DNA of 36,425 nucleotides from a virus (taxonomy: Duplodnaviria > Caudoviricetes). Below the pieces are notes generated by a model that saw only the letters and a program-made list of their open reading frames with translations, was not told where the DNA came from and searched no databases. Each line of letters begins with the position of its first letter. Positions within the stretch are counted from its first letter, which is position 1. This document shows positions 1,756-22,115 of this stretch, piece after piece. Location: positions 1 to 36,425 of IMG/VR virus record IMGVR_UViG_3300044580_000030; one strand, written 5' to 3'. Position numbers and translations under genes: made by a program.

Positions 1756-2219
1756 CGCATAAACTCTTTAATCACGTCGCTGTACACCGTCACGCTTGCC
1801 TTGTTCTGCAGCTGCTCCTTTAACTCGTCAACTTCTGCCTCAAGCTCGGCCAGTAGTGTGCCGTCGTTGTATTTGTTCGGTACTTTAATTCCTCGCTCAT
1901 CGATTTTCCTTGCCACAAGGTACGCAAAGCGCTTTTCATTGTCAACTTTTATACCCTTGTCTTTTACCCACTGCAGAATAACGCCGTATAACCTTCCTCG
2001 CCTCTGTGGCGCTGTCGGTCGTCTTCCATGCACGAGCTGGTAAGTGTAGTTTGTGCCCAATATCGTTACCGTAACCCCTCCTTGTCGCTGCTCTGTTCTG
2101 CCTTCCAGCTCACGCTCCCAACGGCCAGACGCTTTCAATCCCATGCGCCTGTATTTGCTTTTCAGGCCTTCAATTGCCCGCTCAAGCCAATCATTTGCTA
2201 TGTCCGCAAGGTTATTCAT
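1752..2219 (-). CDS. Putative neck/tail-completion protein (HK97 gp10-like, basic)
   Basis: KASG, GRRP, ILQWVKDKGI and FAYLVARKIDERG motifs common in phage neck proteins. Confidence 0.55.
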   Translation of the reverse strand: MNNLADIANDWLERAIEGLKSKYRRMGLKASGRWERELEGRTEQRQGGVTVTILGTNYTYQLVHGRRPTAPQRRGRLYGVILQWVKDKGIKVDNEKRFAYLVARKIDERGIKVPNKYNDGTLLAELEAEVDELKEQLQNKASVTVYSDVIKEFMR

Positions 2220-2640
2220 CTACCAACGTTATTTCGATTGCGACAAAATCAATGTTTGAAGCGAACTCGTTCAATTGCATTATTGCCCGCTCGCTCTTAA
2301 TTGTGTACCCGTACGTGCAAGCAAACTCGCCAATCCAGCTAATAGCAATGTCGATAAGGTCGTTTAGTCGTGCGTTTAGCTTCTCTTCGAACGTCTCGGC
2401 AACGCTGGCAAAGCTCGTTGCTTCAAATTTTCTTCCGACAATGATAACACCATTATAAGTGATTGACTGTACAACATTGTTTGCCCGCTCAATTTCTGCG
2501 TTGAAATCTGCGCCCAGCAGTATTTGCCCTTCGGCCAGTGTCATTTTGTTTGCGTGCAGTGACTGGAAGTAATTGCTGCCAAGAATTAACTTTGCTCCTT
2601 TGGCCGTTGCGAATGCCTTTATGTCGTTATAGATTTTCAT
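2212..2640 (-). CDS. Putative tail-completion/structural protein, first gene after a promoter
   Basis: 142-aa ORF downstream of a TAACTTTG box. Confidence 0.45.
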   Translation of the reverse strand: MKIYNDIKAFATAKGAKLILGSNYFQSLHANKMTLAEGQILLGADFNAEIERANNVVQSITYNGVIIVGRKFEATSFASVAETFEEKLNARLNDLIDIAISWIGEFACTYGYTIKSERAIMQLNEFASNIDFVAIEITLVDE

Positions 2641-2655
2641 CGATTATTTTTTTTG

Positions 2656-2663
2656 CAAAGTTA
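2656..2663 (-). promoter_or_regulatory. Bacteroidota sigma -7 box TAACTTTG for the tail operon
   Basis: Matches TAnnTTTG, 15 nt upstream of the ATG at 2640. Confidence 0.7.
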
Positions 2664-2702
2664 CAACGCATGAACATTGTTTACTGTAATTCAATTTTTT
2701 GC

Positions 2703-2723
2703 AGTGCTTTTGCTATGCAATTG
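2703..2723. repeat. 21-bp exact inverted copy of iteron segment 21843-21863
   Basis: agtgcttttgctatgcaattg is the reverse complement of caattgcatagcaaaagcact. Confidence 0.9.
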
Positions 2724-2734
2724 TTATGTACAAT

Positions 2735-3361
2735 TTAATTTTTAAAAAATCCCGCCCACTGTTCCGCAACAGCCTCGGCAATCCCTTTAAAAGTTTTACT
2801 CCGCAATTTCGCCCTTTCTGGCCCAGGTGGCAAATTGTATAATCGTTGCGCCTGTTTTTTTGGTAATTCCTTCCAAATATGCTTTACATTGTTTGTTTCC
2901 TTCAATTTTGGTAATCCTTCAATCCACAAGCAAGTTGCTTTGCTTTCAGGCTCACCAAACATATACGGCTGTATTAATTGGTCGTATTTTTTGCCAATCA
3001 ATTCTAAAGCATATTTGTGCGGTATTGGGTTCTCAATTACTTTCATCTTCATCGGTGCATCCAGCAACTTTTTAAAGAAGGCGCAAGCATCATTTAAGTT
3101 TTGCCACCTTTCTTCATTTCGGCTCCCGTCTTTATTCCAGAGCCAACGTACGCCACTATTTGTAATAAATGTGCAGGGCGGGTGGGCTATCATTGCAATA
3201 TACTTTCCGCTATAAGCCTCAATAATTGCATCGCCTTGTATATGCCATTCGGGATGCCCACCCGAACACGGTTGCAAATCACAGCTATAAGCCTCAATGC
3301 CTCGCTTTCTTAATTCTATTGTTATTGCCTGACTTTCTTCACAGGCTACTAAAACTATCAT
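2735..3361 (-). CDS. Phage DNA cytosine-C5 methyltransferase-like protein
   Basis: VLVACEESQ (motif I variant), YSCD, IAHPPCT catalytic PC motif, IENP, KATCLW. Confidence 0.8.
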   Translation of the reverse strand: MIVLVACEESQAITIELRKRGIEAYSCDLQPCSGGHPEWHIQGDAIIEAYSGKYIAMIAHPPCTFITNSGVRWLWNKDGSRNEERWQNLNDACAFFKKLLDAPMKMKVIENPIPHKYALELIGKKYDQLIQPYMFGEPESKATCLWIEGLPKLKETNNVKHIWKELPKKQAQRLYNLPPGPERAKLRSKTFKGIAEAVAEQWAGFFKN

Positions 3362-3888
3362 TCTTGTCTGCCTTTTTTCATTTTCACCTCTTGCAACCGG
3401 CGCTGGAAGTCATTGATTCGCTTCTGTGCGACAAGCTCCAACATTGCATCGGCATAACGCATCTGTTTAACTTCTTCAATCTTATAACCAAGCGTTATAG
3501 CTATCTGTCTTATTTGCAAGTAAGCGCCAAGCTCCTCAAGCTCTGCAATACCGGCCAATTCGAAGTCTGCATCGTGCGATGACAGCAGCTCATTTTCCAA
3601 CTCAATCGTTCTGCGCACCTGGTCCAACAGGTAGTTGTAGCACTGAATCGCTCTGAACAGCTCTTTGTCACCGATGTCCTTAACCCCGAAAATATCAAAC
3701 CAATACACTGCCCGGTAAAACGATAGCTCTCTTACCTCTGCCTGCAGTTGCTTTACTGTGTCGAACGGCCAATCATCGAACTTGCCAATGCCAAGTGTGT
3801 CCATTGACTGTTTGGCCAAGTCGCTGAAGCGAATAATCGTGTCAACTTCGCTTTTGTCTTCCAATTCAATGTATTCCTTTACCGTCAT
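3358..3888 (-). CDS. Hypothetical protein (possibly tail-assembly-chaperone-like)
   Basis: 176-aa acidic helical ORF, ATGA-coupled on both sides. Confidence 0.4.
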   Translation of the reverse strand: MTVKEYIELEDKSEVDTIIRFSDLAKQSMDTLGIGKFDDWPFDTVKQLQAEVRELSFYRAVYWFDIFGVKDIGDKELFRAIQCYNYLLDQVRRTIELENELLSSHDADFELAGIAELEELGAYLQIRQIAITLGYKIEEVKQMRYADAMLELVAQKRINDFQRRLQEVKMKKGRQE

Positions 3889-5030
3889 AATGCTCGCACT
3901 CCTTTATATGGCCGTCCAATAAGTTTTGTACATGCATAGATGAGCGCATCAACAAGATGGTCATCGCCATCCTTCGGTGTCTCGCTCTTTTTGTCCAACC
4001 AAATGTAACCGTTCAGTTCTCTGGCAAGGTTATAACTGTCATCGGTAACGATTAACTTGTACTGCTGCATTTTTTTCAGAATTTCAACTTTCCGCATCTT
4101 CTCTACCGCAACAACGTTCATTCCTCGAACCCGCAAATCGTAAACAGTCCTTGCACTTGCACTATCGGCAACAATCAATTTGTTCGGCTCTGTGTGCAGA
4201 ACAAGCTTACGAAACAGCATCTCGGTCGAGTTGCCCGATTCAAACAACTTCTCCTCTGCGTAAATTATCTGTTGTTTATGGTCAATAGCTACACGAACAA
4301 GAGCGTCCTGGTCCCGGTAACCAAAGTCAAGGCCATATATGTATGGCAGCGTCTCGTCGAACTGGCCAAAGTCATACTTAAGAATCGTATCCTCGAGCTG
4401 CCCGAACTCTCCCATGCCATAAACCCGATACCAATTTGCCCACTCTGGTTTATTTTTTCTACTTTCAATAAACTCGAATTCGTTTTTAGCAATAAATGGA
4501 TTATCCTTATAGTTACTGCGAATGATTTTGTAATTCGAATCTTTCCCTAAGATATATTCATTTAGCCAAAACTCGGCCGATGGGTTGAAATCTAAGAAAG
4601 TAACTTGCTGCACACGGCTGTAGAATTGCCGGAAGACATCCCAACTTATACGTCGATTACACTCATTGACAAACAGTATATCTGGCCTTAAAGAGTGCGC
4701 TCGTGCCTCGTTGCCCTCAATGCCAAAGAATTCAACACGTGCGTTGTTGATATAATACGTGTGCTCGCTCTTATTCTTTACAGCTCCAACATTGACGTTC
4801 ATCGCTTCCAGTATTTCGTCAAATACCTTCATCGCTCCGCCCTTTAAGTGTGGCAAGGCGTAGGAAGCGATTACGATGTGCTTCTTCTTCTTTGACAACA
4901 ATGCAATTTGCGCAATAAGCTGCAGGATTGAATAAGTTTTACCGCTACCCTGCCCACCTTGATTGATTATTAGCGGATAGCCAGCAAGATAAGCGTCTAA
5001 ATTCTCGTGATATACACGAGTGTATTTCAT
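3885..5030 (-). CDS. terL: Terminase large subunit (PBSX-like)
   Basis: Walker A GGQGSGKT, LFVNEC Walker B, DFNP, YKDNPF, nuclease GLDFG and DHLVDALIY. Confidence 0.93.
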   Translation of the reverse strand: MKYTRVYHENLDAYLAGYPLIINQGGQGSGKTYSILQLIAQIALLSKKKKHIVIASYALPHLKGGAMKVFDEILEAMNVNVGAVKNKSEHTYYINNARVEFFGIEGNEARAHSLRPDILFVNECNRRISWDVFRQFYSRVQQVTFLDFNPSAEFWLNEYILGKDSNYKIIRSNYKDNPFIAKNEFEFIESRKNKPEWANWYRVYGMGEFGQLEDTILKYDFGQFDETLPYIYGLDFGYRDQDALVRVAIDHKQQIIYAEEKLFESGNSTEMLFRKLVLHTEPNKLIVADSASARTVYDLRVRGMNVVAVEKMRKVEILKKMQQYKLIVTDDSYNLARELNGYIWLDKKSETPKDGDDHLVDALIYACTKLIGRPYKGVRAL

Positions 5031-5452
5031 TTTCCTTCAAGTTTTTTGATTTTGTCTGCTTGCTCCTCGTCCTCAACGACAATCTTAGGTACCTGAATTG
5101 TATGCTCCATCTTTGAACGCAGCGCATATTGGTCAGGATAGTTGCGCTCCAGCCACCATGCGGCCGACTGCCAGCTACCGTCTTCAATGATTCGGCGCTT
5201 GCAGATGTCAGCGATTTTATCGTCGCCGATTTCTTCTGCTTTTTTTACGGCGTCAACAAATTCAGGTTTATTGTCAAGCCATTCGGTAAATGTTTCGTAA
5301 AATATGCCTGCCATCTTACAAGCTCGCACCCTTCCTTGCCCTTCAGCAAGCGCAGTAAGTAAGCGAAGTACAACATCTTTGTTATACTTTTTTCTTTCTT
5401 TTTTAACTATATTATTTACAATTTTTTGTAGATTTATGTTTTTTTTAGTCAT
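5027..5452 (-). CDS. Terminase small subunit-like HTH protein
   Basis: RACKMAGI..TFTEW HTH, AAWWLER motif; directly upstream of terL. Confidence 0.75.
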   Translation of the reverse strand: MTKKNINLQKIVNNIVKKERKKYNKDVVLRLLTALAEGQGRVRACKMAGIFYETFTEWLDNKPEFVDAVKKAEEIGDDKIADICKRRIIEDGSWQSAAWWLERNYPDQYALRSKMEHTIQVPKIVVEDEEQADKIKKLEGK

Positions 5453-6369
5453 AAATCATATTTTTCTCTTTTTGGTTCATTAGTAAAAGGAATATCTTCT
5501 TCAAATGCATCCCAATACATCGTGTTTATACGATAATTTGGGATTTTGAGTATTTTTGGCACAAGAAAATTATAATTAATTCTATGATGCAACCTACCGC
5601 CGATCTTTTTTTGCTTTTCTGCATGAATGCATGAAGGTAACTGAATTGGGCAAATTATTGCCTTCGAAAATAGCTTTGTCTCATTGTATATTTCCGTTAA
5701 TCCGCCTTCTGCTGTTGCAGACATCGTTTGGTCTAAATAGATAGCGCCAAATAGACTGCCGGTAAAAAGTCCATCATTTAATATTGTAACGAATTGCGAA
5801 GTATCGTCGTCATGCAATCCTCTCTCACCTCTATAGATGTATTTTACGTTATAAAAAGAACAATTCATAACCTTGTAGTGAATTAATTTGTCAGTAAAAT
5901 TTACGAAAATATCACCTACTTGTGGCAAGCCGAATAAGCCGATATGATATTTTTTTATAAATTCGGCAATCGCATCAAATGCCTTTATGACATCATCGCC
6001 ATTAGCAAGTCTTTCGTAATGTTGATTTGGCCGTATCGCAAATACTTTAGTATCGTCATCCATTACGCAATAAACTTCAATTCCCATTCCTTTTGCGATA
6101 TCGTAGAACATGTTTCTCGCCATTCCAGCTGCTCTTCTCGATGGCGACTTTCGATGTACGAAATCATATCTTCGCCTTGCCTCATTTATATCGAAGATGA
6201 AAAGGTTGAAACCGTTTTTTTTGGCTTTTTCCTTATAATCTTCAATATCTGGCGTTTCGTTATCGATTACAACATGCACTTTTTGCATGTCGTAGCCAAT
6301 TTTATTTAGAAACTTAATAGTTTTCAATTCTTTGGCTCGCTTATACGATGGGATAAAAATATCAATCAT
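5449..6369 (-). CDS. GT-A fold glycosyltransferase (GREB1-like / TET-associated type), putative DNA modification
   Basis: N-terminal IFIPSYKR, ARN, VMDDD (DxD), HDDD, GGLTEIY; next to ParB and terminase. Confidence 0.72.
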   Translation of the reverse strand: MIDIFIPSYKRAKELKTIKFLNKIGYDMQKVHVVIDNETPDIEDYKEKAKKNGFNLFIFDINEARRRYDFVHRKSPSRRAAGMARNMFYDIAKGMGIEVYCVMDDDTKVFAIRPNQHYERLANGDDVIKAFDAIAEFIKKYHIGLFGLPQVGDIFVNFTDKLIHYKVMNCSFYNVKYIYRGERGLHDDDTSQFVTILNDGLFTGSLFGAIYLDQTMSATAEGGLTEIYNETKLFSKAIICPIQLPSCIHAEKQKKIGGRLHHRINYNFLVPKILKIPNYRINTMYWDAFEEDIPFTNEPKREKYDL

Positions 6370-7078
6370 TGCTCAAAATTTTATTTTTAATTTTTAACAA
6401 TTCGTCCTCAATAAAGCCATCAATACCGTTATCTATCAACACGAGTCGTAATCTTTCGATTACTTTCTTTTCTTCTTCCGTGGCATTATAGGCATAATAA
6501 TTTGCAATTGCCTCATAATCAATTTTTACAAACCGTGTCGCTAAAAGTTGAAAGACTTCTTTAATTTCCGAACTTACGTTTGCCGAATTTACGATTTCCA
6601 TTTTTTTGTCGTATTTTTCGGTATTTACGCAATCTTTCAGTCTAAGTGACGGCTTCAATTCTGGCTCGTAGTATATTGATTCGATTTTCAATTCGCTAAG
6701 TAATTCAGTGGCTGTTTTTTTGGGAATATCCACTCCCCACTCCTCCAGCAGCTTATCGTCCCATTCGTTGGCCAATTTCTCCCAATCCCACTCGCCAAAC
6801 GGAACATTATCCTCGATGATGAACCGCTGTTTCTCTTCATCGGTCAGCTCGCTTGCTTTCCGCACCCATTCGTCCGGTACTTCCTTATAACCCAACGACA
6901 GCAGCGCCCTATATCGCATATTACCGCCAAGTATAGTGCCGTCATCATCGATGACAATTGGCCGTAGCGCCATCATCTTCGGGAATTCCTTCACCGATTG
7001 GACAAGTTTTTTGAATTTCTCGTCCTTTATAATTCTCGGGTTGGATGAATTAGGTTTTAATTGATTTAGCCTTATCAT
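6362..7078 (-). CDS. ParB/Srx-like N-terminal domain protein with a helical C-terminal domain
   Basis: LKPNSSNPR, RPIVID, ILGGNMRYRAL, FIIEDN..GEWD; C-terminal IYYEP..DYEAIANYYA..LVLID. Confidence 0.85.
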   Translation of the reverse strand: MIRLNQLKPNSSNPRIIKDEKFKKLVQSVKEFPKMMALRPIVIDDDGTILGGNMRYRALLSLGYKEVPDEWVRKASELTDEEKQRFIIEDNVPFGEWDWEKLANEWDDKLLEEWGVDIPKKTATELLSELKIESIYYEPELKPSLRLKDCVNTEKYDKKMEIVNSANVSSEIKEVFQLLATRFVKIDYEAIANYYAYNATEEEKKVIERLRLVLIDNGIDGFIEDELLKIKNKILSND

Positions 7079-7096: not shown

Positions 7097-7750
7097 TTAT
7101 AGATTATATTCCTCGCCAATTTCTGCACATAATGTTCTTCCGAAATTATTCCAGTAGGGCGGGCGCACTCGCACAAGCCTTGTGCCTTTGTCATAAGGGA
7201 GGAAGCGCATCGTTTTGCCATCTTTTGTAAGGCTGTAATCATTTTCAATAATATCAACATCTATCGACAATACTCTGCCTTTTCCATATGCAGCCTTTTT
7301 GCCTAAATATCTTATATGTCTGCGCAATATCTGATGTACTCGTTCACGGTCGCCAACTGCATAAGCAACCATCTTTGTTGCAAGTAGCAGTGGTAATGGA
7401 TGATTATACTCTCGATATATACCACTTTGTAGGTTTGGACTTCCCTGAGTGAGTTCAATTTTACTCTGACGAAACTTCTTACGCCAATATTGTAAACTTT
7501 CAGCCACCTCCCCTTCTGGAAATAGAGCGCTTGCGCACCAACCCCAATGTCCGTTAATATGCCATTTGCCTAATGGTAAAGGTACGTCTATTGGTTCGCT
7601 GTTTCTTGTTGGCGGTTCATCTCCTTTTTGCTGATGAAATGGCATAAGAGCCCATGCCATTAAAGCATCCAAATGAATCGGCTCGTAAGGGTCATAATAT
7701 AATCCGGTACCATCTAAATGAAATGTAATCTTTAAATTTTGTAAGCTCAT
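7097..7750 (-). CDS. csf3: Csf3 (Cas5-like RAMP) of type IV CRISPR-Cas
   Basis: IHLDALMAWA, PLPL, WCASALF, YAVGD, Gly-rich loop LGKKAAYGKGRV, C-terminal RFLP..RPPYW. Confidence 0.85.
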   Translation of the reverse strand: MSLQNLKITFHLDGTGLYYDPYEPIHLDALMAWALMPFHQQKGDEPPTRNSEPIDVPLPLGKWHINGHWGWCASALFPEGEVAESLQYWRKKFRQSKIELTQGSPNLQSGIYREYNHPLPLLLATKMVAYAVGDRERVHQILRRHIRYLGKKAAYGKGRVLSIDVDIIENDYSLTKDGKTMRFLPYDKGTRLVRVRPPYWNNFGRTLCAEIGEEYNL

Positions 7751-8478
7751 AGCAATTCTCTTACTTTTTGGTATAATTCAGGATAATTGGTTCTTAACCA
7801 TTGTATTCTTCCATTATTTTCTCCATCGGTAGACAACCATCCCGTGCTTCTGATTGTCTCTGCCGATTGCCCGCAATTTTCCTTCAAATATATAGGATTT
7901 ATAGGCAAATCATACGCATAATGATAAGCCCAAACATCATTTATTGTGAAATCTATTATAGGGCTTATTCTTTCAATTCCGTTCTTATCAATATATTTAC
8001 GTCCTTTATATTGCAAAAGAGCTTTCCTTCCTAATGATTCTTCTGCTCTCAATCCCCAAAACATGCCTGTAAATTTATTTGCTTTAGCCCATTCGTTTGC
8101 TGGATTCTTTTTTATCATCGATACTACTTTATTTTGGGTATACTTGTCTCTCATATGCGGCAAACCAAATTCTTTGCACAATTCCATGTAATCAATTTCG
8201 ATTTGTAATTCAGTGTAATTTAAATTCATCGATTTTACTATGTTTTGCATAAATTGATATGACTCGGGTATCGCATATCCGCTTTTAATGTATAGGACAG
8301 GTATATCCGAAATAAATGAAGTGCATAGGTGTAATACCACATTACTGTCCTTACCTCCAGACCAACTCACATAGTGCGAATAATCGATATTCTTTTCAAT
8401 TATTCGCTTTGCTCCGTCAACTTTCTTTTTAAAAGAGAGTTCCCTGGCCCAAAGTTGGTATTTTAGCTTGTTTTTCAT
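7747..8478 (-). CDS. cysH: CysH-like PAPS-reductase-family (PP-loop) protein
   Basis: VSWSGGKDS PP-loop, GLRAEES..R, SPIIDFTINDVWAY..LPINPIY. Confidence 0.88.
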   Translation of the reverse strand: MKNKLKYQLWARELSFKKKVDGAKRIIEKNIDYSHYVSWSGGKDSNVVLHLCTSFISDIPVLYIKSGYAIPESYQFMQNIVKSMNLNYTELQIEIDYMELCKEFGLPHMRDKYTQNKVVSMIKKNPANEWAKANKFTGMFWGLRAEESLGRKALLQYKGRKYIDKNGIERISPIIDFTINDVWAYHYAYDLPINPIYLKENCGQSAETIRSTGWLSTDGENNGRIQWLRTNYPELYQKVRELL

Positions 8479-9133
8479 TTTTCATCTCCTCCTGACTTGG
8501 TAATAGGTAGCATAATAATTGATACAATGGGCTCTGATACTTGTCTTTAGCCCAAGATTGAAATGTAAGCCATCGATTAATGCCATATTTGTGCATTACC
8601 ATTGGTGGACAATCTAATGACTCCAATATTGTGCGCCCAAATCCTATGTGCAAATATTCGTTAAGCATATTATACCATTCATTTACTTTTTCCTTATCGC
8701 TGGCATTTACAGTAATATTTTCGAATCGCCATAAACCAAATTGTTTATTATTTACTGGGGCATTCAGCGAACCATGCTTCTTGTAACTTGTAGTAATATA
8801 AGCCGTCCATACATCTCTATCTACTCCATTCAAAACAAAACGTCTAAAGTCAGAGCGTTGTAAACGTTCGAATGTTCTTCCGTCGCATAGCCAGCTACTC
8901 GAGCGCTCCCATTTATAAGATAATGCCAGATAAGCATCAATACCAATTCTGTTACTCTCTGGAGCTTTCAAAACATCGATATTCGTAAATTTCTTTCCAA
9001 ACAGCTCAGAGCGATGAATAGTATCCGTCTCTTCTCCAGTGACGCAGCATATCCCAATTTCAGTTTTTTTCGGAATATCAGGACAATCCGGCAAATTGCT
9101 TATTGCTTTGGCTATCAAGTTTACGCTGTGCAT
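8429..9133 (-). CDS. csf1: Csf1 (Cas8-like large subunit) of type IV-B
   Basis: N-terminal CCVTG..FTNIDVLKAPES motif, SYKKHGSLNAPVN; position between csf2 and cysH/csf3. Confidence 0.68.
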   Translation of the reverse strand: MHSVNLIAKAISNLPDCPDIPKKTEIGICCVTGEETDTIHRSELFGKKFTNIDVLKAPESNRIGIDAYLALSYKWERSSSWLCDGRTFERLQRSDFRRFVLNGVDRDVWTAYITTSYKKHGSLNAPVNNKQFGLWRFENITVNASDKEKVNEWYNMLNEYLHIGFGRTILESLDCPPMVMHKYGINRWLTFQSWAKDKYQSPLYQLLCYLLPSQEEMKNEKQAKIPTLGQGTLF

Positions 9134-9395
9134 TTTTAAGCCTCCATTTCTTTATTTTAAGGGCATTCTTCGTCTTGTGCGTTATTATCTGACTGCAATG
9201 ATTTACAGTAAAGTTTTCAAGGAGAAAACATTCCATTTCTGTGTATCTCGGCCGCTTCTTATATCCATGTCGTAATAGCCAATTATTGACTGTACCTGGA
9301 TTCTTATTCAACATCTTTGCTATTTCCCGAATAGACATGTCTCTGAAATTGCTAATCATCAGCGTCCTCTGTGACAATGGTAGTTTGCCGCTCAT
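9078..9395 (-). CDS. Small basic HTH DNA-binding protein inside the csf module
   Basis: MSIREIAKMLNKNPGTVNNWL HTH followed by a second helical unit (RYTEME...KTKNALKIKKWRL). Confidence 0.7.
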   Translation of the reverse strand: MSGKLPLSQRTLMISNFRDMSIREIAKMLNKNPGTVNNWLLRHGYKKRPRYTEMECFLLENFTVNHCSQIITHKTKNALKIKKWRLKNAQRKLDSQSNKQFAGLS

Positions 9396-10605
9396 ATGCT
9401 CCGATTTTTGTTAAGAATAAAATTATTTTTTCCTTATTCTCTGACAGATATTTTTCATATAGCTCAGGAGATGGGCAATTTTCTATATCAATTTTCACTC
9501 TACCAAACCCTCTATTTGAATTTGCTCCTATATAACCCTTCTGTTGCATAATTTGTAAACCTTTCCCCAGTGCCGATAGCTCAAGGTCAGATATATGATT
9601 GTCTACGTCAATACCTCCCGTAAGAGTTACACCTGGCCGTATGCATTCAGTTATTGCTATCATTGACGCATTTTCGCCATCGTCATGTCCTTCATGGTCT
9701 TCACGCCGTGTCAGGAAATGCCATTCCAGTAGTTCGCTTACAGGTTTATCCCCATTGCCCCATTCAATGCATGATGGTCGATAATCTGCCGATTTGAAAC
9801 GACCTGACAAAATGCGATTACCTAAAGCAACACCAAACAATGATAAAGCTGGCAGTGTGTCTCTGAATTGATATATGCCGTCTGCTTTGACCGCTCCATT
9901 GTCACCCATTAATGATGCCAATGCCTTGCCAGCCTTACTATTTTCTTCAAGCGCCCCGCCGGAATATAATGCATGGAAAAACCATAGTGCAACCTTTGGT
10001 TTGTCTCGGCGTGCCGATATGCCGATTGATTTAAGAAAATGGTCTGCCAAAACGTCCCTTAATTGTCCTCTGAATGCATTACCAGAATAATAAGGTAATG
10101 ATACTACACCATTGTCTGTCATTACTTGCATACGCCTGAATAGTGTTGCGTTGCCTGCCTTTGTATCGCCTCCATGAGACAGTGGACTTAATGTAGTTAT
10201 CGTTATGCCAATATCATATTTTGGCTGAGGCTTTGCTATTCCTTTGGTTGGGTTATAAGGCTCAATATCAACCATATCGCATGCCTTTTTCTGTTCCTCC
10301 CATTTCCCAATTGTCGCAATCATACCAGCTATTTTTGGATAAGTCTTTATCCAATTAAGGATAGAGTGTGCATTTTCTCCAGTTATGGTCACTATCATTT
10401 CAGCTCTCATTTCCGGATGCATATCGTCGAAACTCACATCCATTATAGTGCTGAATTTTTCGACAAATGACAATAGCGTTGGCTCGTTCGCAAGTTGAAG
10501 AAATTTGTCGCTTACGAAATCGGACAAATTACGATTAACTTTAATCGAACCGTTTTGTGCGATGTATCTTAATACTCGCATTACTTGATAAAATTGTTCC
10601 TTCAT
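9352..10605 (-). CDS. csf2: Csf2 (Cas7-like RAMP backbone) with a ~125-aa helical N-terminal extension (putative fused Cas11)
   Basis: ITTLSPLSHG, LPYYSGNAFRGQLRD, LYSGG, LSLFG, TRRED, ECIRPG, Gly loop IGANSNRGFGRV. Confidence 0.88.
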   Translation of the reverse strand: MKEQFYQVMRVLRYIAQNGSIKVNRNLSDFVSDKFLQLANEPTLLSFVEKFSTIMDVSFDDMHPEMRAEMIVTITGENAHSILNWIKTYPKIAGMIATIGKWEEQKKACDMVDIEPYNPTKGIAKPQPKYDIGITITTLSPLSHGGDTKAGNATLFRRMQVMTDNGVVSLPYYSGNAFRGQLRDVLADHFLKSIGISARRDKPKVALWFFHALYSGGALEENSKAGKALASLMGDNGAVKADGIYQFRDTLPALSLFGVALGNRILSGRFKSADYRPSCIEWGNGDKPVSELLEWHFLTRREDHEGHDDGENASMIAITECIRPGVTLTGGIDVDNHISDLELSALGKGLQIMQQKGYIGANSNRGFGRVKIDIENCPSPELYEKYLSENKEKIILFLTKIGAYERQTTIVTEDADD

Positions 10606-18976: not shown

Positions 18977-19531
18977 TTATTCGTCAATGGCCGGTGCCGC
19001 CTTTCTTGCTGGATAAAGTGGATAAAGGAAATAAAGATTAGAATAAAGATCGCCTTTATATTCTCTAAACAGATGTCGGTTCAGGATAATAAGGTTACCG
19101 TTATGCGTAATGACAACTCGACTGCTACCTATTAACCTTTGTAAGTATAATAGATAGCTTTGGTTGCCCAATTGAGTAACATCTATTTCCTTGGCGAACA
19201 TGTAAGTATCGCTAAACCTGCTATTGCCATAACCGGCGATAATGCCATTATGGACTATTGCAGTGTTTTTGTTTATTCTTATCGGATGGGTATTGTCGAA
19301 ATCAATCCGGCCGTGTGTGGCAACACGGAAGTGCAGGACAATCGTACCGTCAAATTCTTTTCTCAGGTTATAGTATCGCTCTATAACCTTTTCATTTATA
19401 ACATTTTTGAATATATGCAGTCGATTGTCTGCATGCCACATCATACCTGCACCATGTGGATTGCAGCCAGAAGCGAGGGTTAATAATTCCTCGCTAATCG
19501 TTTTATTTTTATTCACAATGATCACACACAT
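18977..19531 (-). CDS. Class II (Ntn) glutamine amidotransferase
   Basis: N-terminal Cys (MC), NPHGAG, HFRVATHG, NTHP, VHNG, SDT. Confidence 0.88.
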   Translation of the reverse strand: MCVIIVNKNKTISEELLTLASGCNPHGAGMMWHADNRLHIFKNVINEKVIERYYNLRKEFDGTIVLHFRVATHGRIDFDNTHPIRINKNTAIVHNGIIAGYGNSRFSDTYMFAKEIDVTQLGNQSYLLYLQRLIGSSRVVITHNGNLIILNRHLFREYKGDLYSNLYFLYPLYPARKAAPAIDE

Positions 19532-20498
19532 AATTTATAATTTTTTTGATTGTTTCAATGTTTCTCAGGTCTGGACTTAGTCCAATATGGAGGGTGTCTC
19601 GCTCTGTCCTTCTATACCTAAAAGACGAATCAACATGAGTTGCACCGATTACATCGGCCAATTCTTGGAGTTGTGGACAATATATGAGGTTATTACCCCT
19701 ATTCCCGTTGAGCCCAAAAATAATAATATCAATGGGTAAACCTTTCTCCGGGATATACGAGAAGTCTCTAACTTCTCTTTCAAAATCATCCCGGAAGGTT
19801 ACCTTTTTTATAAGGTTTATTTTTTTGCCACCCCACGCCGGGTTAATTGCAAGATACCTGTCAGTTCGCAATTTGGTTACAAGCTCAATTAAACGGTTAT
19901 AATCACGTTTGTTGAGCAAATGCTTGTAGCTCTCATACGTAGGAGCTACAGGGTCGCCTGAAGCATCTAACCCATAGCATATAACACTCTTAGCTACCTT
20001 ATACGATAGTTTGAGGGTTAATTTTGCCAGCTCCGGGCAAGCCAACCAGCCGGCAGGCAGGGAACGATATTCGAAACCGTAAGATTTTGTTTCGTAATTG
20101 CCTCGCCTAGCATAGCAACCCCTTGCTCGCCCTTCGAGGGGTTGTAGCAATGGTAACACAAAGCTATCCATTGCCCTTACTATTGGCAGGATCATCGATT
20201 CCTCAATCCCACCGAAATGAATATGTCCGCCAAGGGCGAATGTATCACCCTTAACGGACATGACAATATTTTGCTCGTCCGCCTTACGAATAAGGTAGGA
20301 CAGGCTAAGATATAATTGACCCCAGCTCCCCGGTCGAGGACGCAATTCGCCGGTGGAACTGCACCCATCAAGACCAATGGGGGCAACCCTTTCTGGGTCG
20401 GTTATGTAATTATATGCCTCGACCACACACATATCTATTGGGTCGAGGATATCAAACTCTGGGTCAGCTCCCAGAGTTATTTTTATTTCTTTTTTCAT
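19509..20498 (-). CDS. phiEco32-like COOH-NH2 ligase (type 2 amidoligase)
   Basis: LGADPEF, GLDG, ELRP, GGHIHFG, YGFEYRSL; coupled to the GATase. Confidence 0.82.
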   Translation of the reverse strand: MKKEIKITLGADPEFDILDPIDMCVVEAYNYITDPERVAPIGLDGCSSTGELRPRPGSWGQLYLSLSYLIRKADEQNIVMSVKGDTFALGGHIHFGGIEESMILPIVRAMDSFVLPLLQPLEGRARGCYARRGNYETKSYGFEYRSLPAGWLACPELAKLTLKLSYKVAKSVICYGLDASGDPVAPTYESYKHLLNKRDYNRLIELVTKLRTDRYLAINPAWGGKKINLIKKVTFRDDFEREVRDFSYIPEKGLPIDIIIFGLNGNRGNNLIYCPQLQELADVIGATHVDSSFRYRRTERDTLHIGLSPDLRNIETIKKIINYVCDHCE

Positions 20499-20511: not shown

Positions 20512-20542
20512 AAAAACCTCGGCCGTTTTTAAGCGACCGAGG
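20512..20542 (-). terminator. Intrinsic terminator upstream of the amidoligase
   Basis: CCTCGGTCG-CTTAAAAA-CGGCCGAGG-TTTTT on the minus strand. Confidence 0.7.
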
Positions 20543-20880
20543 ATGCTTCCGCTTTCCCATCAGCGGTAAGGGGCGGTTAATCCTGCTTGTCCGCCAACAG
20601 GGGCTATGTCGCGATGACCGGCGCCCAACCGCCGCTGACAGCTCACCCTTTCGGGCTTCTTTGTGTTTTTACGCCTCCATCCCTGCGGCGACTTCGGCAA
20701 CTTACCTCCTTCCTCTCATGGTTCCATGCAGTTACTGTGCTTCGCTGCATGAGGCCGGGTAAGCGGCCACACTCTTAACCCTTGTTTTAGTGGATTGTTT
20801 TTTTCCTTGTCCACTCATTGACTACATGTATGTAGTCATGGTGGACTTTTTCGCCGGCGTTGTAGGTGCCGCCGAAAACA
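20512..20880 (-). ncRNA. Putative structured non-coding RNA / leader
   Basis: GC-rich gap with no credible ORF, several stem-loops including a GAAA tetraloop, ending in a terminator. Confidence 0.55.
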
Positions 20881-21198
20881 TTAACCGAAGATATCATCTA
20901 TTGGATATTTCATTATTTCGTACAAATATTCCAGGAATTCATTATAATCTATATAATTATCGTCATCTGCCATGCCATGAATAGTCACGACATGGACAAG
21001 ACTTCTGAGGTATTCGTTTTTTCTTAAATATCTCACTTCAAACTTTTGTTTTTCTTTATCATAATATATTTTCGCCACAACAGGATAATCACTATTATGA
21101 GTATTTACATAATTTAATAATCCTTCAAGCTCATCCTCATTGAACAATGTTTCAATGTCATTTTCAAATTGTGTTAATAATTCTTCTTTTGTTTTCAT
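20881..21198 (-). CDS. Small acidic protein, first early gene
   Basis: 105 aa, about 23 D/E versus 11 K/R by hand count; directly after the early promoter. Confidence 0.7.
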   Translation of the reverse strand: MKTKEELLTQFENDIETLFNEDELEGLLNYVNTHNSDYPVVAKIYYDKEKQKFEVRYLRKNEYLRSLVHVVTIHGMADDDNYIDYNEFLEYLYEIMKYPIDDIFG

Positions 21199-21239
21199 TG
21201 CTTTTTATTTTTTGGTTTAACATTAAATTAATTACAGTG

Positions 21240-21272
21240 TAAATATAATAACATTTTGACCCGATTTGCAAA
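21240..21272 (-). promoter_or_regulatory. Early promoter TTTG-N21-TATATTTA (Bacteroidota -33/-7)
   Basis: -33 TTTG at 21272-21269, 21-nt spacer, -7 variant at 21247-21240. Confidence 0.6.
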
Positions 21273-21576
21273 TTTTTGCCAATTTATTTTTTGGATTTTA
21301 ACATTTTTTAACATTTCAATTTTAGAAACAACATCGCAAAATCAAAAAATCGATTTTAAGGGCCAAAATTTAAACGAAAGCGAAACGATGTATTATTTTA
21401 TTGGCCTAATATATATCGTCGAAATTTAGCCTATAAGACAACGAATTTTAGGCATGTTTAACGATTACTTATTAGCGCTGATTTTTTCAATTTTCAATTT
21501 TCTTCTTTCTTTCTTTTATTTTAATTTTCTTTCTTTCTTCTTTAATTTATCTTTCTTCTTAATATATATATTCTAG

Positions 21577-21611
21577 TAATATAATATAATATAATATAAT
21601 ATAATATAATA
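21577..21611. repeat. (TAATA)7 tandem repeat flanked by CTAG-containing inverted repeats
   Basis: atattctag-(taata)7-ctaggatat. Confidence 0.9.
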
Positions 21612-21672
21612 CTAGGATATTAGTCATATCGCTGCACTATTTCGTATTTTTTCGAAATGAAACAATACTGAT

Positions 21673-21685
21673 TATCAGGCGGTTA
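21673..21685 (+). promoter_or_regulatory. IHF-consensus site (TATCAG-GCGG-TTA)
   Basis: Matches WATCARN4TTR; a second match AATCAA-ATCA-TTA lies on the minus strand at 21759-21771. Confidence 0.4.
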
Positions 21686-22084
21686 TGCAAATGCTATGCA
21701 ATTGCACTGCAATTGTAATGCAATTGCTAAAGGCAATTTTTCGAATTTTGATTTTGCTTAATGATTTGATTTTCAAAGAATTATAATTTATCCTGGCGGG
21801 CGAAAAATGCAATTGAATAGCAAATGAAAAGCAAAAGCAATGCAATTGCATAGCAAAAGCACTACAATTGAAATAGAATTGCAATGCAATCGGTAAAGCA
21901 ATTGCAGCACGAATTATCCGATTGAATTATTTAATTGGGAAAATTACGCAGGGCAATGATGTGAATTGTAAACGAAGAAATTATAACTACTTGTTGCAAT
22001 GCAGAAGCAAAGCAATTGAAATGCAAATGCTATACAATTGTAATGCAATTGCACAACAAAAGCAAAGCAAATGTTATGCAGCTG
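21683..22084. repeat. Three blocks of 11-bp iteron-like repeats (consensus ~CAATGCAATTG); probable replication origin
   Basis: 4 units at 21683-21726, 9 at 21805-21904, 8 at 21997-22084, in 11-bp phase, next to an AT-rich tract. Confidence 0.8.
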
Positions 22085-22089
22085 GAAAC

Positions 22090-22115
22090 AAAAAAGCCGA
22101 ACCTTTCAGCTCGGC
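22090..22115 (-). terminator. Intrinsic terminator ending the late/lysis transcript
   Basis: GCCGAGCT-GAAA-GGTTCGGC-TTTTTT, 6 nt after the endolysin stop. Confidence 0.88.

What the first reader, a model, noticed from the sequence alone, without database searches (positions are those of the whole stretch)
20512..20880. ~370-nt highly structured non-coding RNA ending in a terminator inside the early operon
Seen on the minus strand: TTTTCG.CGGC/GCCG.CGAAAA hairpin; GTCCAC/GTGGAC enclosing TGACTACA-TACA-TGTAGTCA; a long stem GGC.GCTTACC/GGTAAGT.GCC with CTCATG/CATGAG; GCCC-GAAA-GGGT; TCAGCGG/CCGCTGA and GGCGGTT/AACCGCC; then a U-tailed terminator 13 nt before the amidoligase ATG. Several segments have mutually exclusive partners: AGTGGA can pair with upstream TCCAC or downstream TCCACT, and CCGCT with two AGCGG. 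The region is GC-rich against AT-rich flanks and has no credible ORF. Inference: an antitermination/attenuator switch, a ribozyme, or a free sRNA. It is the best in-genome candidate ligand for the array-less Csf complex, although nothing in the sequence links them directly.
Basis: partly seen in the sequence, partly recalled or inferred. Interest (0 to 1): 0.75.

Follow-up and report, generated by a model that had tools for sequence, protein, structure and literature searches.

The report
New phage early-operon leader RNA
This uncultured phage keeps a folded non-coding stretch, found in no RNA catalogue searched but shared with several unrelated phages, in front of the first predicted stop signal of its early genes, where it likely helps transcription read through; its function is untested and a link to the phage's CRISPR-like Csf proteins is not supported.

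Summary
The structure is real. The 3' ~250 nt (20768-20517, minus strand) are conserved; the 5' ~110 nt are not. I found six other distinct copies. Three sit directly before the same amidoligase gene in phages with different virion genes. Three share only an ~80-nt core and lie beside other genes, two of them divergent from cI-like repressors. Compensatory changes support the fold: 7 of 18 core pairs and 10 of 42 full-length pairs, with 0 of 500 shuffles reaching the covariation score. There is no Rfam match and no conserved ORF. Each copy lies near the head of a predicted early or repressor-divergent transcript; the six intact ones precede a terminator-like hairpin. Best reading (0.45): a cis-acting antitermination RNA working like HK022 put or conAn2, with no detectable kinship to conAn2. 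Main rival: a free phage RNA (0.3). A simple fold-switch is not supported by equilibrium folding. The Csf-ligand idea is weak: four RNA-bearing records lack Csf, and a Csf2-like phage lacks the RNA. The window alone carries a CRISPR-repeat-like 23-mer just upstream of the RNA. No expression data exist.

The parts
21240..21272 (-). Predicted early promoter (TTTGCA ... TATATTTA). It resembles the Bacteroidota housekeeping consensus (recalled) and is the only such match found between 20500 and 21400.
   Evidence: a matching promoter sits at the same place in L003 (9394)
20881..21198 (-). 105-aa first early ORF of unknown function. L003 and L023 carry short ORFs (59 and 70 aa) of different sequence here; L020/L021 carry none.
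20809..20878 (-). Two strong hairpins of the 5' part, not conserved in sequence among homologues
20772..20794 (-). CRISPR-repeat-like segment (stem-loop plus 8-nt handle-like end). 21 of 23 nt match the 3' end of a type III-D solitary repeat; single copy, no array; possibly chance.
   Evidence: CRISPR-DR7, E 0.5; E 0.012, below cut-off; compared by eye
20726..20750 (-). Conserved hairpin with 13-nt loop YGAAGYAYAGUAA; covarying stem; its 3' side may pseudoknot with RGUUGC
20629..20706 (-). Conserved core: invariant GUUGCC; AAGUC; helix 20688-20684 / 20636-20632; GUAAAAAC loop; AAAGAAGC...GUGAGC junction; variable hairpin 20656-20645
   Evidence: 87 bits, single copy in the genome
20572..20595 (-). 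Covarying hairpin whose loop (GACUU in three homologues; GAC plus an insertion here) can pair with AAGUC of the core
20549..20566 (-). Covarying hairpin with conserved loop RAUGGRAA
20512..20542 (-). Terminator-like hairpin (9 bp) with five U; homologues L003, L020 and L023 have 10-11 bp but only three U
19509..20498 (-). phiEco32-like COOH.NH2 ligase (PF14395), first gene after the terminator
18977..19531 (-). Class-II glutamine amidotransferase-like gene; travels with the RNA and ligase in L003, L021 and L023

Best explanation
The conserved 250-nt structure likely acts in cis on the nascent early transcript and would let host RNA polymerase read through the predicted terminator that follows it, as HK022 put and pLS20 conAn2 do. 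Shown: sequence, covarying fold, single copy, position ahead of a terminator-like hairpin, and recurrence in unrelated phages. Inferred: transcription from the promoter at 21272-21240; folding of the ~80-nt core; contact of its invariant unpaired residues with a conserved host target (polymerase or a Nus factor); read-through into the ligase, recombination, replication and Csf genes. The invariant GUUGCC strand may assist by capturing the terminator loop, but that is only a hint. Transcripts that do stop would leave a free RNA as a by-product.
For: Position: all 6 intact copies lie upstream of a terminator-like hairpin, on the strand of the genes that follow. L195 and the degenerate L144 start shortly after promoter-like sites divergent from cI-like repressors. 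The downstream genes differ (ligase; small ORFs then Erf/RecE/SSB; a 130-aa ORF then primase), so the constant feature is the operon head and not a metabolic gene. The window shows no Bacteroidota-type promoter between the RNA and the ligase, and none with a full TAnnTTTG between 9000 and 22200, so the early genes probably depend on read-through. The terminator is predicted to form by default (p 0.94-1.00 in 5 copies, 0.64 in L195; opening it costs 12-16 kcal/mol in those 5), which favours acting on polymerase over strand exchange. L195 has two U-tailed hairpins in tandem (by eye). No N-, Q- or NusG-like protein was found among 50 window proteins. The layout short ORF, RNA, terminator and the size range (about 235-670 nt) match conAn2 (260-600 bp, after a small gene, sufficient alone at a nearby terminator; PMC8191782 passages).
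Against: No RNA data. Promoter, RNA, terminator is also the anatomy of an ordinary free RNA gene. The window's early operon shows no further strong intergenic minus-strand terminators, so processive antitermination has little visible work there. Three homologues have only three U after the hairpin, so leaky termination alone could feed the downstream genes. Each genome or record holds one copy, whereas HK022 has putL and putR. The large variable domains of L094 (z -6.1) look more like an ornate free RNA than the 73-nt put (PMC9378689 passages). No promoter motif was found by script for L020, L023 or L094. Only 7 distinct sequences are known, three of them related.
Confidence: 0.45

Rival explanations
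1. A free, trans-acting early phage RNA of the ornate kind (GOLLD/ROOL-like in habit) that ends at the hairpin and binds a conserved host machine. A sub-case is a P4 CI / P1 C4-type immunity RNA acting on complementary sites (recalled). Downstream genes would be fed by leaky termination.
For: It has its own predicted promoter and terminator with no ORF between them in L020, L094, L195 and L144. It has a conserved core with variable peripheral domains up to about 670 nt and probable pseudoknots. The U tails are weak. GOLLD and ROOL are phage/prophage RNAs of unknown function (PMC12286853 passages).
Against: The copies keep a fixed place at the operon head, upstream of genes the phage likely needs, with 13-25 nt to the next ATG in the four ligase-linked copies. 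They show no free placement and are single-copy. No Rfam match to GOLLD, ROOL or C4.
Confidence: 0.3
2. A ligand- or protein-gated attenuator (riboswitch-like). The folded core holds the terminator's 5' arm and loop through the invariant GUUGCC strand only when a signal is bound.
For: In the window the strand pairs with the arm and loop at -12.2 kcal/mol (shuffle p 0.004; best 3% of 322 windows). The terminator loop holds AACC, the complement of GGUU, in 5 of 6 copies. L195 gives p 0.08. Fisher p is 0.006 over four lineages. The covarying core is not the dominant single-sequence fold, as is common for aptamers.
Against: The pairing is not better than chance in L003, L020, L023 or L094 (p 0.21-0.37). 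Fisher p is 0.11 without the window, and the test was post hoc. Cognate pairs are not better than crossed ones. Ensemble probability of this pairing is 0.00-0.01 in all 6 copies, even before the 3' arm is made (pseudoknots are not modelled). The downstream genes share no metabolic theme.
Confidence: 0.12
3. The RNA is the natural ligand of the phage's array-less type IV-B-like Csf complex: host Cas6 would cut at the repeat-like hairpin and leave an 8-nt handle on the structured RNA.
For: The Csf2/Csf3/CysH-like cluster is real (7097-10605). A repeat-like 23-mer ends 4 nt before the conserved RNA. Solitary repeats act as RNA anti-CRISPRs cut by Cas6 (PMC10651486 passages). The RNA of IV-B complexes is unknown (PMC8175902 passages).
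Against: Csf genes were not found in 4 of 4 other RNA-bearing records searched (all incomplete). No RNA match in the Csf2-like phage KR011061.1. The repeat match is below the Rfam cut-off and was not apparent in the aligned homologues. The 16-mer was found in 0 of 151 sampled genomes of one Bacteroidota-centred search. The RNA lies about 10 kb from csf2.
Confidence: 0.05
4. A self-cleaving or other ribozyme that processes the early mRNA.
For: Compact core with many invariant positions, variable peripheral stems and pseudoknot-like pairings.
Against: No match to any Rfam ribozyme. A fixed position ahead of a terminator is not needed for cleavage.
Confidence: 0.05
5. A DNA-level element (protein-binding or replication site) whose inverted repeats only look like RNA structure.
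For: Folding z-scores do not separate the strands. An origin-like repeat region lies about 1 kb upstream.
Against: One-sided changes keep G-U pairs on the sense strand. The fold is multi-branched with probable pseudoknots, and its orientation to the genes and terminator is fixed.
Confidence: 0.03

Closest known systems
conAn2, RNA part of the conAn processive antitermination system of pLS20-type conjugative plasmids (PMC8191782, passages read)
   Same: A 260-600-nt untranslated element after a small first gene at the head of a long operon of a mobile element, ahead of intrinsic terminators; poorly conserved flanks.
   Different: The core model gives no match in the pLS20 operon head (best 5 bits). 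The 105-aa ORF does not resemble the first pLS20 operon protein, taken as ConAn1 by position (E 0.29). It occurs in phages, and several copies have no upstream ORF.
HK022 putL/putR antiterminator RNAs (PMC9378689, passages read)
   Same: A phage cis element near early promoters, in genomes without a recognisable N-like protein.
   Different: put is 73 nt with two stems and two copies per genome. This core is a multi-branch junction with extra hairpins and probable pseudoknots, in single copy. Binding to the beta-prime zinc domain is untested. No blastn match among 50,697 phage records.
GOLLD and ROOL ornate phage RNAs (PMC12286853, passages read)
   Same: Phage/prophage ncRNA, pseudoknots, conserved core plus variable domains, unknown function; L094 reaches about 670 nt.
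   Different: No Rfam match. Most copies are only about 250 nt. Not in tRNA islands (the one tRNA, near L144, looks like an attachment site).
Solitary CRISPR repeat units / Racr RNAs (PMC10651486, passages and supplement file 3 rows)
   Same: A single intergenic repeat-like stem-loop in a phage early region; 21 of 23 nt match the 3' end of a III-D repeat.
   Different: Only the 3' 23 nt of a 37-nt repeat match; below the Rfam cut-off; not part of the conserved RNA.

Membership tests
Any Rfam 15 family (including GOLLD, ROOL, C4, riboswitches, ribozymes, RNase P, tmRNA) | Covariance-model score at or above the gathering threshold | tested here: not met
   best hits far below cut-off (only a tRNA near L144 passes); ARAGORN finds 0 genes in the window
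conAn (conAn1 + conAn2) | RNA homologous to conAn2 | tested here: not met
   best 5.2 bits over pLS20 1900-6500. conAn2 families are only 30-40% identical among themselves, so remote kinship is not excluded.
conAn (conAn1 + conAn2) | Upstream ConAn1-like protein | tested here: not met
   E 0.29; the ORF is absent in L020/L021, L094, L195 and L144
conAn / put (RNA antiterminators) | Located at the head of the operon, upstream of an intrinsic terminator | tested here: met
   6 of 6 intact copies precede a terminator-like hairpin; promoters found by script for 4 of 7 copies
conAn / put (RNA antiterminators) | Suppresses termination in cis | not testable with these tools
   needs a reporter or in vitro transcription
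HK022 put | Two-stem ~73-nt fold and put sequence | tested here: not met
   multi-branch core; no blastn hit in the phage collection; no direct alignment to put was made
HK022 put | Two copies, one per early operon | tested here: not met
   one match per genome or record; the window has a single early direction and the other records are incomplete
Transcriptional riboswitch / attenuator | Conserved alternative helix that excludes the terminator | tested here: inconclusive
   strong in the window only; ensemble probability about 0
Transcriptional riboswitch / attenuator | Ligand binding | not testable with these tools
   needs in-line probing
Solitary repeat unit / Racr | Full-length match to a known CRISPR repeat | tested here: inconclusive
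   21 of 23 nt at the 3' end only (by eye); RF01320 18.5 bits against cut-off 37; SRUFinder not run
Type IV-B Csf-associated RNA | Co-occurrence with csf genes | tested here: not met
   (incomplete records, small numbers)

The most novel reading that the evidence does not exclude
A portable, phylum-crossing RNA-only antiterminator of a new fold that phages of Bacteroidota-type and Campylobacterota hosts swap as a module. In this phage it has been fused behind a CRISPR-repeat mimic, so that host Cas6 clips it and hands the handle-bearing RNA to the phage's array-less Csf complex, tying early gene expression to the host's CRISPR state and supplying the missing natural RNA of a type IV-B system.
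Probability: 0.05. Interest if true: 0.92.

Novelty: new variant of a known kind. Interest (0 to 1): 0.58.

Why it matters
In 2021 only put, EAR and conAn2 were listed as RNA-based antiterminators (PMC8191782 passage). All come from enterobacterial or Gram-positive systems. A core with a 22-nt stretch identical between this phage and an unrelated one (L094), and nearly identical in Campylobacterota-related prophages, would point to a universal target on the transcription machinery and give a compact, testable element for hosts in which such control is little studied. Even if it proves to be a free RNA, it is an uncatalogued phage RNA family with a defined fold and ready compensatory mutants. 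Not-in-print basis: Rfam 15, paper searches, and the supplement search 128. In one search three files could not be searched, and one candidate, DNAVirus_8016, is listed upstream of a different amidoligase family (Amidoligase_2); its sequence could not be seen.

Tried and rejected
Sequencing runs: 5 DNA runs with a 0.05-0.06 share and no RNA holder listed. Nothing from 4 of them laid on 20525-21200. Neither bears on expression or habitat. Blastn of the window, L094 or L195 regions against phages and plasmids gave only short chance hits. The Pontibacillus hit to the repeat-like segment is not an array. Pattern scans: one search gave 2 loci (1 known, 1 inside a capsid gene); one search gave 7 (L003 record, L094, 5 chance); one search gave 39 (2 known, 37 chance); one search gave 22 (2 known); one search gave 15 (only L144 real); one search matched 21 of 401 genomes (only G003 real). 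Model R1 found the RNA in 0 of 77 more distant ligase loci, many of them short. Model R2 genome samples of 150 each: 2, both known; 2 weak; 1 weak; 0; 1 known, 1 weak; 1 known. The four weak hits (23-25 bits) lie in or across long reading frames and were dropped. In one search the script picked the wrong hairpin for L195; this was redone. L144 was left out of model R2 and of the pair counts because it is degenerate. Resemblances considered from memory and dropped for lack of a model match or correct element order: RNase P, group I/II introns, tmRNA, lysine, FMN and c-di-GMP riboswitches, glmS ribozyme, T-box. The 105-aa ORF gave no family or Atlas hit. My note misplaces the repeat-like 23-mer by three bases; 20772-20794 is right.

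Full report
Setting. The window is a complete 36,425-bp virus record with direct terminal repeats. All long genes lie on the minus strand. The finding sits between a 105-aa ORF and a PF14395 COOH.NH2 ligase plus a class-II amidotransferase-like gene, followed by recombination, replication and Csf genes (Csf2-, Csf3- and CysH-like matches, below curated equivalog cut-offs). A Bacteroidota host is inferred from the promoter motif (consensus recalled) and is not shown.

Observation. The region folds better than 100 of 100 shuffles (z -4.74), is GC-rich against its flanks and ends in a terminator-like hairpin. Rfam gives nothing at E<=1 for the window and only sub-threshold fragments for the region. 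The core occurs once in the genome.

Homologues. Four ligases are 44-48% identical to the window's. All four distinct contigs fetched for such close ligases carry the RNA directly upstream: L003 (=L022), L020, L021 and L023, nhmmer E 1e-15 to 1e-33. L020 and L021 differ by one base there. None of 77 more distant ligase loci does. These phages have portal, terminase or capsid families different from the window's, so RNA, ligase and amidotransferase move as a module. Motif scans then found the ~80-nt core away from any ligase. L094 holds it within a ~670-nt folded region (E 7e-13, z -6.1) ahead of Erf, RecE and SSB genes; its host is unknown. L144, from a Campylobacteraceae MAG, holds a shortened copy between a cI-like gene and tRNA-Phe (32 bits against a background of 23-25). 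L195, from a relative of that genome, holds a full core divergent from a cI-like gene, ahead of a primase in a prophage (E 5e-15). Core identities are 62-90%. The family is rare: further samples of 150 genomes gave no new true copy.

Structure. On six cores, 89% of 108 cells pair, 7 of 18 pairs change on both sides, and 0 of 500 shuffles reach the covariation score; slid controls pair 28-43%. The closing helix reads CCGCA/UGCGG, CCGUU/AACGG and CUCUU/AAGAG in different copies. On the four ligase-linked copies, 93% of 165 cells pair and 10 of 42 pairs covary (unsupervised RNAalifold 14 of 50). The structures were drawn by hand from these same sequences and the shuffle ignores relatedness, so these counts are support and not a probability. 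A long-range pairing AAGUC/GACUU (GAGUC in L023; AACUC/GAGUU in L094; 4 bp in L195 and the window) recurs 99-122 nt downstream of the anchor. The invariant GUUGCC strand has several possible partners (upstream, in the 13-nt loop, downstream YAACC, terminator loop), and six sequences cannot separate them. The 5' 110 nt of the finding are not conserved. Sense frames all contain stops in 6 of 6 copies, and insert lengths differ modulo 3, so there is no conserved peptide. Folding energy alone does not fix the strand, and L195 is not unusually stable; the strand is inferred from G-U-compatible changes, terminator polarity and gene direction.

Mechanism. The constant feature is position: near the head of a predicted early or repressor-divergent transcript, before the first terminator-like hairpin, with different genes behind. 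Promoter motifs were found by script for the window, L003, L195 and L144, but not for L020, L023 or L094. At equilibrium the terminator wins (p 0.94-1.00 in five copies, 0.64 in L195), and the direct antiterminator pairing has probability near 0. That pairing is strong in the window (p 0.004) but not in four homologues (p 0.21-0.37); combined p is 0.006 with the window and 0.11 without it, post hoc. A simple fold-switch is therefore not supported. An RNA that alters the elongation complex fits best, as conAn2 (260-600 bp, after a small first gene, cis-only; PMC8191782 passages) and put (73 nt; PMC9378689 passages) do. Against this: one copy per genome, few further strong terminators in the window, weak U tails in three homologues, and anatomy equally suited to a free RNA. 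I put cis antitermination at 0.45, free RNA 0.3, gated attenuator 0.12, Csf ligand 0.05, ribozyme 0.05 and DNA element 0.03.

Csf link. Csf2 or Csf3 was not found in four other RNA-bearing records, all incomplete. The one Csf2-like phage in the collection lacks the RNA. The window does have a CRISPR-DR7-like stem-loop at 20772-20796 (E 0.012 in the genome, below cut-off). By eye it matches 21 of 23 nt of the 3' end of a III-D solitary repeat in supplement file 3 of PMC10651486 and ends 4 nt before the conserved RNA. It may be a decayed Racr-type unit or chance. For type IV-B background I read passages of PMC8175902.

Comparison and novelty. The RNA is not a member of conAn2, ConAn1 systems, put or any Rfam family by the tests made. 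It may work like them. Papers seen: passages of PMC9378689, PMC8191782, PMC10651486, PMC8175902 and PMC12286853; supplement searches of PMC10651486 and PMC10690425 (three files of the latter not searchable, which could hide a prior listing); search listings only for the rest. An exact-motif paper search found 0 papers. P4 CI and P1 C4 are recalled. Earlier findings of this scan show no sequence look-alike but several RNAs of like position; they pointed me to conAn2 and are not counted as support.

Verdict. A real, uncatalogued, covarying phage RNA family with a small but cross-lineage membership. It most likely controls read-through at the first early terminator; its function is untested. Interest 0.58.

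Noticed in passing
window 7097-10605 (-): Array-less type IV-B-like module in a 36-kb complete phage: Csf2-like (417 aa), a small HTH ORF, a 234-aa ORF in the Csf1 position, CysH-like and Csf3-like, next to ParB-like, glycosyltransferase and methyltransferase genes. Only 1 of 50,697 phage records has a Csf2 tblastn match.
   Followed up: partly
window 20772-20796 (-): Solitary CRISPR-repeat-like stem-loop (type III / I-B family) between the 5' hairpins and the conserved RNA; possible Racr-type unit.
   Followed up: partly
window 21680-22106: Three clusters of 11-bp-period GCAATTG-type repeats plus ATT and purine runs at 21480-21620, after a strong terminator at 22115-22096; origin- or operator-like.
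   Followed up: no
L094 2745-3415 (+): About 670-nt highly folded region (z -6.1) closed by a 10-bp long-range helix, containing the core; no Rfam match; may be an ornate RNA in its own right.
   Followed up: partly
L003 9983-11459, L021 6335-7829, L023 9989-11492, window 18977-20498: The ligase plus amidotransferase pair is the first early module in phages with different virion genes; the amidotransferase is 65% identical between the window and L003.
   Followed up: partly
L214 556-14007 (+): 4484-aa DarB-like protein in the G001 phage; the same record has its own sigma factor and a RadC-like DNA repair protein.
   Followed up: no
L144 2202-2700: Prophage remnant: cI-like gene, divergent promoter-like site, shortened RNA copy with many G-U pairs, then tRNA-Phe.
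   Followed up: partly
L020 380-700 and L023 9030-9350: A second conserved hairpin-rich non-coding stretch upstream of the RNA in these two phages, following a strong U-tailed terminator.
   Followed up: no
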